Source of the DNA: an uncultured Bacilli bacterium
GTDB lineage: Bacteria > Bacillota_I > Bacilli_A > RF39 > UBA660
Assembly (NCBI GenBank): GCA_934162195.1
Contig: CAKPHO010000004.1
Location: 7,031-71,030 of the forward strand
Direction of reading: 5' to 3'
Length of the DNA stretch: 64,000 nt
How positions within the stretch are numbered: the first letter of the stretch is position 1; each line of letters starts with the position of its first letter. The notes under the pieces are model-generated. The model saw only the letters and a program-made list of their open reading frames with translations. It searched no databases and was not told the origin of the DNA. A program made the translations under genes and the position numbers. This document shows positions 3,417 to 37,802 of this stretch, in pieces.

Positions 3417-3447
3417 CTTAACTCCTCCTAATTCTACTTCCTTTTAG

Positions 3448-33725: not shown

Positions 33726-33890
33726 AAAAACCACGTGTTTTTCTAGGAACGAAAAACCGTGGTACCATCCTAATTGATCTTAATTTTGATAACGGTTTCC
33801 CGGTGATTATTAATCACACTCCAAAGGAGCTTCAATCAAAACATTTATCTGTTTTCACCAACCACAGACTCTCTTTAAAATATTTTTAAT
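33726..33890 (-). promoter_or_regulatory. T-box riboswitch leader, Ala specifier (GCU)
   Basis: Minus strand has AGAGAG and the distal hairpin TCTGT-GGTTGGTGAAA-ACAGA. The specifier is GAA-GCU (GCT at 33828-33830). The T-box sequence GGATGGTACCACGG (33757-33770) overlaps a terminator helix followed by T5. alaS is the third gene downstream. Confidence 0.8.
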
Positions 33891-33912
33891 TTACTAATCT
33901 TCTTCAACGTTT

Positions 33913-34455
33913 TTATACAGTCATTAATTCTTGTTCTTTTATCTTAAACTTTTCATCAACAATTTTATTATATTTATTAATTAATTCTTGAACATCTTCT
34001 TGACCACTTTTTATTTCATCTTCAGGCACTTCTAATTTTTTTATATCGTTATTAGCATCTTGTCTAATATTACGAAGCGCTATTTTACATTCTTCACAAA
34101 TCGTTTTAGCTTGTTTTACATATTCTCTTCTTGTATCTTCTGTTAAAATAGGAATATTTAAAATTATTACTTCACCATTATTATTTGGAGTTAGTCCGAC
34201 ATTTGCTTCATAAATTCCTTTTTCAATAGCTCCTAAAGTAGTTCTATCAAATGGCTTAATCATAAGTTGACGTGCCTCAGGAATAGAAATAGTAGCAAGT
34301 TGTTTTAATGGTGTGTCAACTCCATAATAAGATACCATAACACCATCTAAAATAGCTGGATTTGCACGTCCTGCTCTAATATTAATTAATCTTTTTTCCA
34401 TACTCTCAATAGAAGCTTCCATTTTCATTTCTGTTTCCATTAAAATATCATCCAT
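33913..34455 (-). CDS. frr: ribosome recycling factor
   Basis: Start placed at MDDILMETEMKMEASIESMEKRLINIRAGRANPAILD. Typical Frr sequence and length of about 180 aa. Confidence 0.92.
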   Translation of the reverse strand: MDDILMETEMKMEASIESMEKRLINIRAGRANPAILDGVMVSYYGVDTPLKQLATISIPEARQLMIKPFDRTTLGAIEKGIYEANVGLTPNNNGEVIILNIPILTEDTRREYVKQAKTICEECKIALRNIRQDANNDIKKLEVPEDEIKSGQEDVQELINKYNKIVDEKFKIKEQELMTV

Positions 34456-34548
34456 ATAATTCATCCTCTCAACTACATATATTATATTATAAAGTGTTAT
34501 ATTTATCAACAATAAAATTAATTTATAATGAATATTTATCACAAACTG

Positions 34549-34577
34549 TTGAATGCGTAGTTAACTTCTGGTATAAC
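34549..34577 (+). promoter_or_regulatory. putative promoter of the small hydrophobic ORF
   Basis: TTGAAT (34549-34554), 17-nt spacer, TATAAC (34572-34577). Confidence 0.45.
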
Positions 34578-34641
34578 CATCATAGGAAACTTCAGCTGTT
34601 TGAGTGTCTACCTCCACCATCAATGAGAGGAGGTTGAAAAA

Positions 34642-34734
34642 ATGAAAATGAAAACTTTTATTATAAAATTTTTAAAACTCATTTCTTTCATTTTATTACT
34701 TTTAACCTTGTTGGTTTTAGCAATAAAAAAATGA
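34642..34734 (+). CDS. 30-aa hydrophobic peptide, type I toxin-like
   Basis: GAGAGGAGG RBS then ATG. MKMKTFIIKFLKLISFILLLLTLLVLAIKK has a single TM helix with lysine flanks. An upstream ACCTCC could pair with the SD. It has its own terminator downstream. Confidence 0.5.
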   Translation: MKMKTFIIKFLKLISFILLLLTLLVLAIKK

Positions 34735-34758
34735 CACTTAAGTCTATGACTTAAATGT
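34723..34758 (-). terminator. minus-strand hairpin plus U-tract overlapping the 3' end of the small ORF (end of an antisense RNA or of the dnaJ 3' UTR)
   Basis: Minus-strand ACATTTAAGTC-ata-GACTTAAGTGT (11 bp, one G-U pair) followed by CATTTTTTTATT. The U-tract is the complement of the last codons of the ORF. Confidence 0.5.
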
Positions 34759-34779
34759 CCACCAAATTTAAACGGGTAG

Positions 34780-34819
34780 ACATTCAGCAACCAAAACTGA
34801 ATGTTTCCTTTTTTATTTT
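34780..34819 (+). terminator. intrinsic terminator of the small ORF transcript
   Basis: ACATTCAG-caaccaaaa-CTGAATGT hairpin followed by TTCCTTTTTTATTTT. Confidence 0.65.
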
Positions 34820-34842
34820 ATGCAAGTTCTCTTGCTAAATAC

Positions 34843-34871
34843 ATAATAACATAAAATTAACTTTATGTAAA
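34843..34871 (-). promoter_or_regulatory. possible promoter for an antisense RNA convergent with the small ORF
   Basis: Minus-strand TTTACA (34866-34871), 17-nt spacer, TATTAT (34843-34848), just after the dnaJ stop. Confidence 0.35.
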
Positions 34872-34874
34872 GTA

Positions 34875-35996
34875 TTATAAATATTGGTTAATTTTTTTAA
34901 ATTCTAAACTATCGTCTAAAGTTGTATTTGAAAGTTCTTCAAATAATTTCTTTTGATCACGAGTTAGTTTCTTAGGAGTTATTACCTTTATAACAACATA
35001 CATATCACCTTTACGTGAAGAATGTACATCTTCTATTCCTTTTCCTTTGATACGATATTTATCATTTGTTTGAGTTCCTGCGGTAATCGTTAAAACAACT
35101 TTACCATTTAAAGTAGGGACTTCTTTTTTACATCCTAATACCGCATCAGTAATTGTAATTGGTAACTCTAAATATATATCATTTTCTTCACGTTTAAATA
35201 ATGGATGTTCTTTTACTCTAAACTCTAAATATACATCTCCATTAGGTCCACCATTAGTTCCAGCGGTACCTTTTCCAGCTAAACGTAATTGATTTCCAGT
35301 GTCTACTCCGGCTGGAACTTTAACTTCTAAAGTCTTTGTTACTTTTAATTTACCAGCTCCACGGCACTTACTACATTTAGTTTCATATATTTTTCCTTTT
35401 CCTCTACAACTAGGACAAGTTGTTCTAGTCATGAAAGAACCAAATAATGTGTGTTGCTCTGTTGTTACTGTACCACTACCATGACAATCAGGACAATTTT
35501 TTTCTCCATGTCCACCTTTACCATCACATTCACTACATTCTTCCATTATTTCTAATGTAATATCTTTTTTACAACCAAAAGCAGCTTCTTCAAATGTTAA
35601 ATCCATTCTAATTAAGCTATCAGCGCCTCTAGTGGCACGGTTTGAGCCTCTCGATCTACCTCCACCGAATCCAAAATCAAATCCACTTTCTCCAAAAAGG
35701 TCACCGAAAATATCAGAAAAATCGAAACCAGAAAAATCAAATCCACCTGCTCCAGATCCACCTCCGGCACTTTGTTCAAATGCGGCATGGCCAAATTGAT
35801 CATATTGTTTTCTTTTTTGTGGATCAGAAAGTACCGCGTATGCTTCTTGGGCTTCTTTAAATTTTTCAGCAGCATCTGGTTCTTTAGAAACATCGGGATG
35901 ATACTTCTTTGCTAATTTACGAAACGCTGATTTTATTTCATCATCCGTAGCAGTTTTACTAACTCCTAGGACCTCGTAATAATCTCTTTTATTCAT
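34875..35996 (-). CDS. dnaJ: molecular chaperone DnaJ
   Basis: J domain with HPD (KKYHPDVSK), a G/F-rich region, and four CxxCxGxG zinc-finger repeats. Confidence 0.96.
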
Positions 35997-36005
35997 TTAC
36001 ATCAC

Positions 36006-37802
36006 CTAACTTAATTCTTTAAATTGTTTAATTAAATTATCAAACATCTTAATTGCACTTTCAACTACTTCACTCTTTGTAACATCAATACCAGCAATTT
36101 TAAGTTCGTTTGCTGGATAGTCACTACCACCTAAAGATAAGAATTTCTTATAGTTTTCAAGAGCGTTTGGTTTATCATTTAATATGCCATCTGCAATATA
36201 ACATGCGCAAGACAAACCAATGGCATATTTATAAACATAAAAATCATAATAGAAATGAGGAATTCTTTCCCATTCATATCTAATAACATCGTCAACTACA
36301 ACATCAGGTCCAAAATATTTTTTATTTAATTCATAATACTTATCCGAAAGTAATTGACTAGTTAGTATTTCGCCTTTTTCTTTTAAGGCATGCATAACTC
36401 TTTCAAATTCCGCAAACATAGTTTGTCTATAAATTGTCGATTTAAAATTATTCATCATTTCGTTAATAATATATTTTTTTTCATTTACATCATCAGTATG
36501 ATTTAAGATGTAATATTTTAATAACAATTCATTAACGGTAGATGCGACTTCAGCAACAAAAATTTTATAACTAGAATATTGATATGGATTATTATGACAC
36601 GAATAATATGTGTGCATTGAATGACCAAGTTCATGAGCAAGTGTTGACACATCACCAAATTTACCATTAAAGTTTAGTAACACATATGGATTTGTATCAT
36701 AGAAACCACTTGAATAGGCACCTGTTCTTTTTCCTTTATTATTATAAACATCAATCCATCTTTCACCAAAAGCTTTATTTAGATTTGCTACATAATCTTC
36801 TCCTAAAACCGCTAGTGCTTTCAAAACTAACTCTTTAGCTTCTTCAAATGTATAATTTTTTGAACAATCAGGTACTAAAGAATTATATTGATCATATAAA
36901 TGGAATTCATCTAAACCTAAAACTTCTTTTTTTAAATCAAAATATTTATATAAAACATTTAAATTATTAGACACTGTATCTATTAAGTTATTATAAACTT
37001 CAGTACTAATATTATCATCAAATAAAGATGCTTCTAAACTGCTTGAATATTTTTTTAACTTCGCCATAGTAGTTAAAACTTCAACATTACCAGCAAAAGT
37101 ATTAGCTATAGTATTTTTATAGTTACTATAGGTTTTTAATAACATTTCAAAAGCTTCTTTTCTAACATCTCTATTAGTAGATTCTATAAACGAAGAATAA
37201 TTGCTTTCAGTAAGTTCAATTTCTTCACCTTTATCATTTTTTACTTTACCAAATCTTAAATCAGAATCAGTAAGAGCCTCAAATACTTGTTCTGGAGTAC
37301 TATTTATATTAGCAAAAGATGAAATAATACTCTCTGCTTCTGTGTTTAATATATGATCTTTGTATCGATATAGTTGTTCCAACAAAAACTCATATTCTTC
37401 TAATCTTGGTTCTTCTTTATAAAATTCTTTTACTTGACTATAATCTATTTTCATCATTTCAGGATTAGCAAAGGAATCTAATCTATTATATTCAGCTAAC
37501 AAATTTTCAATTTTACCATTCATCTTTTGATATTCATCATTTGTTGTATCACTATCAAAATTTAGATGAGCATAATAATAAAGCTTATATAATTTTCTTT
37601 CTAAATTCATTGAGAACTCAATATAATCAAGTAAATTTTTAGCATTTTTTACAATATTACCTTTAAATTCTAGAACTTTTTTTATTTCTTTTGAAGCCAA
37701 ATCATAATCCTCATACCATGAATCTACATCTTTGTAAATCGGTGTCAAATCCCATTTATATTTTTCTTCAATTTCACTTCTAGTTTTTTGTCTTTGTTCC
37801 AT
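36006..37802 (-). CDS. pepF: oligoendopeptidase F (M3B)
   Basis: 598 aa with the HELGHSMH zinc motif and the typical PepF N-terminus (WDLTPIY). Confidence 0.9.
   Translation of the reverse strand: MEQRQKTRSEIEEKYKWDLTPIYKDVDSWYEDYDLASKEIKKVLEFKGNIVKNAKNLLDYIEFSMNLERKLYKLYYYAHLNFDSDTTNDEYQKMNGKIENLLAEYNRLDSFANPEMMKIDYSQVKEFYKEEPRLEEYEFLLEQLYRYKDHILNTEAESIISSFANINSTPEQVFEALTDSDLRFGKVKNDKGEEIELTESNYSSFIESTNRDVRKEAFEMLLKTYSNYKNTIANTFAGNVEVLTTMAKLKKYSSSLEASLFDDNISTEVYNNLIDTVSNNLNVLYKYFDLKKEVLGLDEFHLYDQYNSLVPDCSKNYTFEEAKELVLKALAVLGEDYVANLNKAFGERWIDVYNNKGKRTGAYSSGFYDTNPYVLLNFNGKFGDVSTLAHELGHSMHTYYSCHNNPYQYSSYKIFVAEVASTVNELLLKYYILNHTDDVNEKKYIINEMMNNFKSTIYRQTMFAEFERVMHALKEKGEILTSQLLSDKYYELNKKYFGPDVVVDDVIRYEWERIPHFYYDFYVYKYAIGLSCACYIADGILNDKPNALENYKKFLSLGGSDYPANELKIAGIDVTKSEVVESAIKMFDNLIKQFKELS

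What the first reader, a model, noticed from the sequence alone, without database searches (positions are those of the whole stretch)
34549..34871. Type I toxin-antitoxin-like module between frr and dnaJ: 30-aa hydrophobic peptide with a sequestered SD and a convergent overlapping minus-strand terminator
Plus strand, in order:
- TTGAAT, 17-nt spacer, TATAAC
- a 5' UTR of about 60 nt in which ACCTCC (34610-34615) can pair with the GGAGGT of the SD (34629-34634)
- the ORF MKMKTFIIKFLKLISFILLLLTLLVLAIKK (34642-34734)
- a clean terminator (34780-34819)

Minus strand. A possible promoter (TTTACA, 17-nt spacer, TATTAT, 34843-34871) sits just after the dnaJ stop. An 11-bp hairpin plus U-tract (34723-34758) follows, and that U-tract is the complement of the last codons of the ORF. 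A minus-strand RNA, either an independent sRNA of about 110 nt or the dnaJ 3' UTR, would therefore be antisense to the 3' end of the peptide mRNA.

This is the arrangement seen in Bacillus txpA/RatA-type and bsrG/SR4-type systems. Peptide size, charge distribution and SD occlusion also fit type I toxins.
Basis: partly seen in the sequence, partly recalled or inferred. Interest (0 to 1): 0.65.

Follow-up and report, generated by a model that had tools for sequence, protein, structure and literature searches.

The report
New type I toxin-antitoxin-like family

Summary
Comparison with relatives shows the elements are conserved and not chance.

I found 16 further copies of the same about 330-nt module in human and rabbit gut Bacilli/'Tenericutes' MAGs. 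They sit in at least 8 genomic contexts, and some form tandem arrays.

- **The ORF is coding.** dN/dS is 0.05-0.67, and 0.12 against the closest relative.
- **The minus strand has its own gene.** It has a TG-extended -10 promoter at a fixed position in 16/16 copies, three stem-loops, and a terminator whose wobble pairs are valid only on the minus strand.
The 5' UTR of the peptide mRNA pairs with both arms of its own 3' terminator region. There are 23 pairs, 13 with compensatory double changes, 94% of cells paired, and 0/500 shuffles reach this.
- **The SD is occluded locally as well.**
- **Decayed copies** keep the antisense gene and lose the ORF.
- **Sister species** carry cassettes of different specificity groups between near-identical flanks.
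- **No known family matches** in Rfam, Pfam or NCBIfam, and a search of 1.84 billion representative proteins gave no hit.

Best reading: a new type I TA-like family with a 3'-overlapping antisense RNA plus a hok/aapA-style 5'-3' lock. Toxicity and transcription are untested.

The parts
34549..34577 (+). Promoter of the peptide mRNA: -35 TTGAAT, 17-nt spacer, TGg, -10 TATAAC (TATAAT in other strains)
   Evidence: All 11 full copies have a -35/-10 pair at 17-nt spacing, 49-65 nt upstream of the SD.
34584..34819 (+). Predicted peptide (toxin) mRNA, about 232 nt. The ends are inferred from the -10 box and the T-run.
   Evidence: MFE -60 kcal/mol, z = -5.75. No transcript data were available.
34585..34595 (+). 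5' UTR segment A (GGAAACTTCAG). It pairs with 34797-34808, the 3' arm of the terminator.
   Evidence: helices 1 and 2; 5 of the 6 pairs in helix 2 have compensatory double changes.
34599..34612 (+). 5' UTR segment B (TTTGAGTGTCTACC). It pairs with 34775-34787, the 5' arm of the terminator plus upstream bases.
   Evidence: helix 3 has 14 pairs, 8 with compensatory double changes; 93.5% of cells are paired.
34610..34634 (+). Anti-SD ACCTCC (34610-34615), loop, and SD GGAGGT (34629-34634). ACC is shared with segment B.
   Evidence: P(SD unpaired) 0.011 against 0.30 in shuffles. Other subgroups use different anti-SD/SD pairings (CUUUC/GAAAG, UCACCA/UGGUGA, CCUUCU/AGAAGG), read by eye and in the folds.
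34642..34734 (+). ORF of 30 aa: MKMKTFIIKFLKLISFILLLLTLLVLAIKK. Basic N-terminus, 16-residue apolar core, C-terminal KK.
   Evidence: dN/dS 0.12 against L096; GRAVY 1.64, net charge +6.
34775..34819 (+). 3' partner of the long-distance pairing, and the intrinsic terminator of the peptide mRNA: stem 34780-34787/34797-34804, T-run 34809-34819.
   Evidence: The same hairpin read on the minus strand is SL2: 8 pairs, 5 with compensatory changes.
34843..34871 (-). Promoter of the antisense RNA: -35 TTTACA, 17 nt, TGt, -10 TATTAT. It starts 3 nt after the dnaJ stop codon.
   Evidence: A TG-extended -10 sits at the same offset from SL1 in 16/16 copies in at least 8 contexts.
34725..34836 (-). Predicted antisense RNA (antitoxin candidate), about 112 nt. 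SL1 34822-34835, SL2 34780-34804, SL3/terminator 34733-34759. Complementary to about 90 nt of the peptide mRNA 3' end.
   Evidence: covariance model hit 34722-34838, 111.8 bits.
34723..34759 (-). Intrinsic terminator of the antisense RNA and of dnaJ read-through: 12-bp hairpin plus U7. The U-tract is the complement of codons I28-K29-K30.
   Evidence: The hairpin is more stable on the minus strand in 12/15 copies, with 21 G.U pairs on minus against 4 on plus.

Best explanation
This is a self-contained type I toxin-antitoxin-like cassette of a previously undescribed family, inserted between dnaJ and frr.

Shown by sequence comparison:
- A plus-strand gene with its own sigma-A-type promoter encodes a 26-30-residue basic/hydrophobic single-helix peptide that is under purifying selection.
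- The first ~30 nt of its mRNA pair with the last ~35 nt before the U-tract. The 5' UTR pairs with both arms of the terminator hairpin, closing the molecule.
- An anti-SD immediately downstream of that helix occludes the SD.
- A convergent minus-strand gene has its own TG-extended promoter, three stem-loops and a terminator. It is fully complementary to the 3' UTR of the peptide mRNA, and here also to its last three codons.

Inferred by analogy with txpA/RatA and bsrG/SR4:
- The closed mRNA is stable and poorly translated.
- The antisense RNA is supplied both from its own promoter and as the dnaJ 3' UTR. It forms a ~90-bp duplex with the mRNA 3' end, which triggers RNase III-type decay and leaves the SD hairpin intact.
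- If the peptide is made in excess, it inserts into the membrane and arrests growth.

Because the 5' UTR and the antisense RNA target the same 3' segment, they must compete for it.
For: - **Family.** 16 further copies were found by DNA pattern, nhmmer and covariance-model searches. They lie in at least 8 contexts.
- **Insertion.** dnaJ and frr are 58-105 nt apart in 5 relatives.
- **Coding.** dN/dS is 0.05-0.67. Third-position changes dominate in close pairs: [1,1,9], [4,3,11] and [4,3,8] by codon position. Length, charge pattern and apolar core are kept.
- **5'-3' pairing.** RNAalifold returns it as the only consensus structure, with 23 pairs, 13 of them compensatory. 94.4% of cells are paired, 47 cells show double changes, 0/500 shuffles reach this, and slid controls give 33-52%.
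- **Cognate specificity.** Cognate duplexes are -31 to -38 kcal/mol against a non-cognate mean of -19.7. They are always more stable on the plus strand than the minus-strand equivalent. The pairing is in the MFE fold of all 11 full copies.
- **SD occlusion**.
- **Antisense gene.** Promoter in 16/16 copies. SL1 and SL2 are found by RNAalifold, with compensatory changes in 5 of the 8 SL2 pairs. The terminator is strand-specific.
- **Decay pattern.** L074c, L090b, L090c and L096b keep the antisense gene but lack the ORF start, SD and promoter.
- **Tandem arrays.** Tandem arrays occur in L064, L074 and L090.
- **Determinants.** The set of features (SD/anti-SD, terminator, 5'-3' interaction, 3'-side overlapping asRNA) is the set of determinants used to recognise type I systems (PMC8594479).
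Against:
- No test of toxicity or of neutralisation.
- No sequence similarity to any described toxin or antitoxin family.
- Only one copy in this 64-kb window.
- SD occlusion is only partial in three of the four subgroups, with P(unpaired) 0.12-0.40.
- Two strain SNPs (34593 C>A and 34605 T>C) each break one long-distance pair without compensation.
- Small hydrophobic ORFs are common in a 27% GC genome, so the peptide composition alone proves nothing.
Confidence: 0.7

Rival explanations
1. It is a genuine small membrane protein gene under cis-antisense control, but not a toxin. For example, the peptide could modulate a membrane complex or be a stress-related small protein. The antisense RNA and mRNA lock would then simply tune its level.
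For: The coding signal and the RNA features show function but not toxicity. The position downstream of the heat-shock gene dnaJ recurs in four species: the window, L009, L064 and L074.
Against: Several features are typical of selfish TA cassettes and unusual for a housekeeping small protein.
- Tandem duplication.
- Copies that retain only the antisense gene.
- At least 8 unrelated contexts.
- Presence near dnaJ in only 3 of 80 related species.
- Replacement of the cassette between sister species with near-identical flanks.
- Double silencing of translation.
Confidence: 0.2
2. It is a non-coding mobile intergenic repeat. It could be MITE-like or a portable bidirectional terminator cassette, whose inverted repeats are DNA-level features and whose ORF is incidental.
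For: There are inverted repeats at both ends of the unit. The unit has multiple contexts and often lies just after the 3' end of a convergent gene, where it supplies that gene's terminator.
Against: - dN/dS is well below 1 and changes fall mostly at third codon positions.
- SD, start codon and ORF length are conserved across 44-72% nucleotide identity.
- The wobble pairs of the 5'-3' helix are valid only in plus-strand RNA, and those of the post-stop hairpin only in minus-strand RNA. This argues for RNA-level rather than DNA-level selection.
- The arms covary between copies, whereas transposase-binding ends would keep one conserved sequence.
Confidence: 0.06
3. It is a chance combination of promoter-like and hairpin motifs in an AT-rich intergenic region.
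For: Promoter-like sites are common here: 16 were found against 11.8 expected in shuffles.
Against: The whole architecture recurs in 16 other copies with covariation. Fold z-scores are -5.75 and -4.14.
Confidence: 0.01

Closest known systems
bsrG/SR4 and bsrE/SR5 (Bacillus subtilis type I TA)
   Same: - Small hydrophobic peptide.
- Convergent antisense RNA of about 100-180 nt with its own promoter, overlapping the toxin mRNA at the 3' end.
- SD sequestered in a short GC helix.
- In bsrG/SR4 the antisense RNA acts at the 3' end, promotes RNase III-initiated decay and extends SD sequestration (PMC3834814, PMC6562991).
   Different: - No sequence similarity of peptide or RNA.
- Here the mRNA 5' end pairs extensively with the very 3' segment that the antisense RNA targets. 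The B. subtilis review contrasts local RBS sequestration in B. subtilis with the long inactive mRNAs of Gram-negatives.
- The B. subtilis loci are prophage or prophage-like. These are not visibly prophage-borne.
txpA/RatA (Bacillus subtilis)
   Same: [quoted passage not shown] The antitoxin works by provoking RNase III cleavage (PMC6562991).
   Different: TxpA has 59 aa and the overlap reaches well into its ORF. There is no Rfam match to any antitoxin family. The peptide here is half that size and the ORF overlap is 0-10 nt.
hok/Sok and aapA1/IsoA1 (Gram-negative type I TA)
   Same: The full-length toxin mRNA is closed by a 5'-3' long-distance interaction that keeps it inert. SD sequestration adds a second lock (PMC8594479).
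   Different: - In those systems the antisense RNA binds the 5' part of the mRNA, and 3' or 5' processing activates the mRNA.
- Here the antisense RNA binds the 3' partner of the long-distance helix itself.
- No processing signal is known here.
- The host is a low-GC Bacilli lineage.
Clostridioides difficile type I TA modules near CRISPR arrays and in prophages
   Same: Gut Firmicutes. Short hydrophobic toxins with Lys-rich ends, convergent overlapping antisense RNAs, and multiple copies (PMC5961336 and PMC6563280, listed; details from my own knowledge).
   Different: No sequence relationship was detected. The genomic contexts differ, and a 5'-3' lock has not been reported there to my knowledge.
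Fst/RNAII (par, Enterococcus)
   Same: A peptide of about 30 residues, and a convergent antisense RNA sharing a bidirectional terminator region.
   Different: In Fst/RNAII the interaction occurs through direct repeats outside the overlap (PMC8594479). The peptides here gave no significant Pfam match (all E >= 0.4).

Membership tests
Type I toxin-antitoxin systems (generic class) | Small (about 20-60 aa) hydrophobic peptide ORF that is genuinely coding | tested here: met
   26-30 aa, GRAVY 1.4-2.3, apolar core of 16-22 residues. dN/dS 0.05-0.67.
Type I toxin-antitoxin systems (generic class) | Antisense RNA gene complementary to the toxin mRNA, with its own promoter and terminator | tested here: met
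   TG-extended -10 with a -35 at 17 nt in 16/16 copies. Three stem-loops and a minus-strand-specific terminator. This is a sequence-level prediction only, with no transcript data.
Type I toxin-antitoxin systems (generic class) | Toxin mRNA structured to prevent translation (SD/anti-SD and/or a 5'-3' long-distance interaction) | tested here: met
   5'-3' helix of 23 pairs, 13 compensatory, 0/500 shuffles. SD occlusion.
Type I toxin-antitoxin systems (generic class) | Peptide is toxic when overexpressed | not testable with these tools
   Needs expression in a host.
Type I toxin-antitoxin systems (generic class) | Antisense RNA neutralises toxin expression | not testable with these tools
   Needs co-expression or deletion experiments.
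Type I toxin-antitoxin systems (generic class) | Multicopy or tandem occurrence and patchy distribution (typical, not strictly defining) | tested here: met
   Tandem arrays in L064, L074, L090 and L096. Present near dnaJ in only 3 of 80 related species. There is a single copy in this window.
Described antitoxin RNA families in Rfam (RatA, SR4-type, RNAII, SprA1as, Sok, Sib, etc.) | Match to the family covariance model | tested here: not met
   No hit at gathering score in the window. At E<=10 over 34400-34950 there are only four noise hits to unrelated families.
Described type I toxin protein families (Fst, TxpA/Bsr-type, Hok, Ldr, etc.) | Match to a Pfam or NCBIfam model, or to any predicted protein | tested here: not met
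   Pfam and NCBIfam give only E>=0.4 noise. phmmer against 1.84 billion representatives gives 0 hits.
Gram-positive 3'-overlap architecture (TxpA/RatA, BsrE-G-H, YonT, SprG/SprF) | [quoted passage not shown] | tested here: met
   About 90 nt of predicted overlap, 34725-34815. The definition is from PMC8594479.

The most novel reading that the evidence does not exclude
The 5' UTR of the toxin mRNA acts as a built-in mimic of its own antitoxin. Both are complementary to the same 3' terminator segment.

On this reading the closed mRNA is shielded from antisense-triggered decay and is untranslatable at the same time. The antisense RNA, including the dnaJ heat-shock read-through transcript, acts by strand displacement on this lock.

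The four mutually non-cognate pairing groups would be orthogonal 'specificities'. They would let tandem copies coexist and would be swapped as cassettes between the conserved promoter and the antisense-5' ends. This would be a regulatory logic not described for 3'-overlap type I systems.
Probability: 0.3. Interest if true: 0.72.

Novelty: new member of a known kind. Interest (0 to 1): 0.6.

Why it matters
Type I TA systems are hard to find by homology and are reported from few phyla (PMC12390103).

This case adds a family in uncultured, genome-reduced gut Bacilli. No gene caller had recorded the peptide.

The natural covariation data are unusually clean. They define the mRNA lock, the antisense RNA and four specificity groups without any experiment.

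The family combines the Gram-positive 3'-overlap layout with a Gram-negative-style 5'-3' lock. That makes it a compact model for studying how an mRNA's own 5' end and an antisense RNA compete for one target.

The orthogonal variants could also serve as parts for RNA devices of the kind built from type I systems (PMC12721322, listed).

Tried and rejected
- **Exact-product look-up of the peptide:** not on record.
- **phmmer of the peptide against 1.84 billion representatives:** 0 hits.
- **Pfam and NCBIfam:** noise only.
- **Rfam, gathering and E<=10:** nothing relevant.
- **Plasmid and phage collections, and viral contigs:** no module.
- **Second copy in the window:** none by tblastn, blastn, nhmmer or covariance model.
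- **Same-species contigs L001-L008:** 99-100% identical, so uninformative for covariation. Their 5 SNPs all lie outside the ORF, which is not significant on its own.
- **'dnaJ 3' UTR only' reading of the minus RNA:** rejected, because the antisense promoter is conserved in contexts without dnaJ.
- **In-situ rapid divergence as the sole cause of the window/L009 difference:** judged less likely than cassette replacement. Each cassette is closer to copies at other loci (72% and 66%) than to the other (57%), while the flanks are 94-99% identical.
- **L093:** left out of the mRNA alignment because its 5' side is foreign, next to an IS-like ORF on a contig of 0.9x coverage.

Full report
**Setting.** The window has 27% GC. 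It comes from an uncultured gut bacterium labelled 'Tenericutes' or 'Bacilli' in public records. The closest genome is UMGS688, with DnaJ 97% identical. Identical DnaJ genes occur on at least 10 human-gut contigs. Nearly all genes in the window are on the minus strand. frr is at 33913-34463 (-) and dnaJ at 34875-35996 (-). They flank a 411-nt spacer that holds the finding.

**Observation.**
- The plus promoter is TTGAAT-17-TATAAC. It is TG-extended, and TATAAT in three other strains and in the sister species.
- ACCTCC/GGAGGT, the 30-codon ORF at 34642-34734, and the plus hairpin with its T-run are all there.
- So are the minus promoter TTTACA-17-TATTAT and the minus hairpin 34759..34733 with U7.
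- The predicted plus and minus RNAs fold far better than shuffles, with z = -5.75 and -4.14.
- The 5' UTR alone is not unusually stable. But the SD specifically is paired: P(unpaired) is 0.011 against 0.30 in shuffles.

**Relatives.** Same-species contigs are 99-100% identical and uninformative. The sister species L009 has a 29-aa ORF, MKKKDLLISFLILIIILLIVSLMILSIKK, at the same place. I scanned metagenome contigs with 23 nt from the 5' part of the putative antisense RNA. I then searched all loci held with nhmmer and a covariance model. Together these gave 16 further copies.
- Full copies: L096, L092 (also L095 and L097), L090a, L009, L099, L094 (also L098), L064a/b and L074a/b.
- Partial copies: L064c, L074c, L090b/c and L096b.
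- L093 has a foreign 5' side.

The flanking genes differ in most of these loci. In L064 and L074 the copies form tandem arrays immediately after dnaJ. In five related species dnaJ and frr are only 58-105 nt apart, so the module is an insertion.

**The ORF is coding.** Peptides are 26-30 residues long. They have a basic N-terminus, an apolar core of 16-22 residues and usually a basic C-terminus. Nei-Gojobori dN/dS values are:

| Pair | dN/dS |
|---|---|
| window vs L096 | 0.12 |
| L064a vs L064b | 0.05 |
| L074a vs L074b | 0.07 |
| more distant pairs | 0.24-0.67 |

Differences concentrate at third codon positions.

**The mRNA lock.** Folding the whole predicted plus RNA pairs its first ~30 nt with the region just before the U-tract.
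- Segment A (34585-34595) pairs with the 3' arm of the terminator (34797-34808).
- Segment B (34599-34612) pairs with the 5' arm and upstream bases (34775-34787).

On an alignment of 11 full copies, RNAalifold returns exactly this as the only consensus structure. It has 23 pairs, 13 of them with compensatory double changes. Pair counting gives 94.4% of cells paired and 47 double-change cells. No shuffle out of 500 reaches this, and controls with the partner slid by 1-3 columns give 33-52%.

An alignment-free test agrees. Cognate 5'-UTR/3'-end duplexes are -31 to -38 kcal/mol, against a mean of -19.7 for non-cognate pairs. This defines four groups: {window, L096, L092, L090a}, {L009, L064a/b}, {L099, L094} and {L074a/b}. 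The plus-strand duplex is always more stable than its minus-strand equivalent, which points to selection on the plus RNA. The helix is in the MFE fold of all 11 copies.

The anti-SD follows segment B directly and shares ACC with it in the window. SD occlusion is strong in the window's group and in L099, and partial elsewhere.

**The antisense gene.** In all 16 copies, whatever the neighbouring gene, a TG-extended -10 sits at the same offset from a conserved hairpin, SL1 (GCAAG/CUUGC). A -35-like hexamer (TTGACA, TTGCAA, TTGAAA, TTTACA, TTGACG or TAGAAA) lies exactly 17 nt upstream. The predicted RNA is about 105-123 nt, and about 112 nt in the window (34836 to about 34725). It has three parts:
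- SL1.
- SL2, the complement of the plus terminator, with 8 pairs of which 5 have compensatory changes.
- SL3 followed by a U-tract.

SL3 is more stable on the minus strand in 12 of 15 copies and holds 21 G.U pairs there against 4 on the plus strand. It is therefore the terminator of the minus RNA. No other terminator lies between the dnaJ stop and SL3, so dnaJ transcripts should carry the same antisense sequence as a 3' UTR.

The overlap with the peptide mRNA covers its whole 3' UTR. In the window it also covers the last three codons. In L064, L099 and L094 it stops short of the ORF.

**Turnover.** Third units of tandem arrays are decayed. L074c keeps the antisense promoter, stem-loops and terminator, but its ORF has no ATG or SD and has lost the apolar core. 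L090b/c and L096b keep only the last few codons plus the antisense gene. L064c is decayed on both sides.

Between the window and L009, the frr-side flank is 98.8% identical and the dnaJ-side flank 93.5%, but the cassette only 57%. The window cassette is closest to L090a (72%) and L096 (69%), which sit at other loci. The L009 cassette is closest to L064a/b (65-66%). Cassette replacement between the conserved promoter and the antisense-5' ends is the simplest reading.

**Comparison with known systems.** The layout is that of the Gram-positive families: TxpA/RatA, BsrE-G-H, YonT, SprG/SprF and Fst. In these the asRNA lies on the 3' side and partly overlaps the mRNA (PMC8594479). SD/anti-SD, terminator stem-loops and 5'-3' long-distance interactions are the determinants used to recognise type I toxin mRNAs.

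For bsrG/SR4, 3'-end pairing promotes RNase III-initiated decay and extends SD sequestration. For txpA/RatA, decay alone is used (PMC3834814, PMC6562991). The same review contrasts B. subtilis (local RBS sequestration) with Gram-negative systems (long, inactive, processed mRNAs). This family shows both kinds of lock.

It is not a sequence member of any described family. There is no Rfam hit, no Pfam or NCBIfam hit, and no protein hit among 1.84 billion representatives. Nothing was found in plasmids, phages or viral contigs.

**Mechanism proposed.** The following steps are inferred, not shown.
1. The mRNA terminates at its hairpin and then refolds, so that the 5' UTR invades the hairpin and closes the molecule. 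The SD stays paired. The mRNA is stable and silent.
2. The antisense RNA, from its own promoter and from dnaJ read-through, pairs with the 3' UTR. To do so it must displace the 5' UTR.
3. The duplex is cleaved, and the freed segment B/anti-SD can form the full SD hairpin. In the window's group, predicted P(SD unpaired) falls from 0.06-0.12 to 0.003-0.02 when the 3' region is blocked.
4. If the antisense RNA is lost, translation of the peptide would damage the membrane.

**Verdict.**
- This is a new family of a known kind.
- One distinctive feature, the 5' UTR and the antitoxin sharing one target, deserves experiment.
- Confidence that this is a functional sense/antisense peptide module is about 0.9.
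- Confidence that it behaves as a toxin-antitoxin pair is about 0.7.

Noticed in passing
window 33742-33916 (-): T-box leader (RF00230, 109.5 bits) between frr and a string of genes: a kinase-like gene, an AAA_18 gene and alaS. It is presumably an Ala-responsive leader for the alaS operon.
   Followed up: no
window 36006-37802 (-): An M3 oligoendopeptidase F gene sits between dnaK and dnaJ inside the heat-shock gene string. This order is also seen in same-species contigs.
   Followed up: no
window near 3422, 10104, 11717, 42796, 58441 (all -): Several large ORFs start with a prepilin-type N-terminus (...FTLIELLAVIVVLAI). This suggests a set of pseudopilin or competence-like proteins. I saw them only as low-scoring tblastn hits of the hydrophobic peptide.
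   Followed up: no
L074 4601-4790 (-); L090 725-1119 (-); L096 1799-1961 (+); L064 4999-5183 (-): Decayed units in tandem arrays. The antisense RNA gene with its promoter and terminator is retained, while the peptide ORF has lost its start, SD and apolar core. L064c is decayed on both sides.
   Followed up: yes
window 34578-34811 versus L009 4165-4398: Sister species (DnaJ 97%) carry cassettes of different pairing groups between flanks that are 94-99% identical. The break points lie at the -10 box and at the T-run.
   Followed up: partly
window 34577, 34593, 34605: Strain polymorphisms. The window strain has -10 TATAAC where other strains have TATAAT. 34593 C>A (L002) and 34605 T>C (L004/L005) each break one pair of the 5'-3' helix without a compensating change.
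   Followed up: partly
L093 1-830: A module whose promoter and 5' UTR are replaced by unrelated sequence, next to an IS-like helix-turn-helix ORF. The contig has 0.9x coverage, so a chimera cannot be excluded.
   Followed up: no
window 34481-34509 (-): A strong frr promoter candidate (TTGATA-17-TATAAT, 11/12 matches). It lies back-to-back with the peptide promoter, 40 nt away, so the insertion left frr with its own promoter.
   Followed up: no
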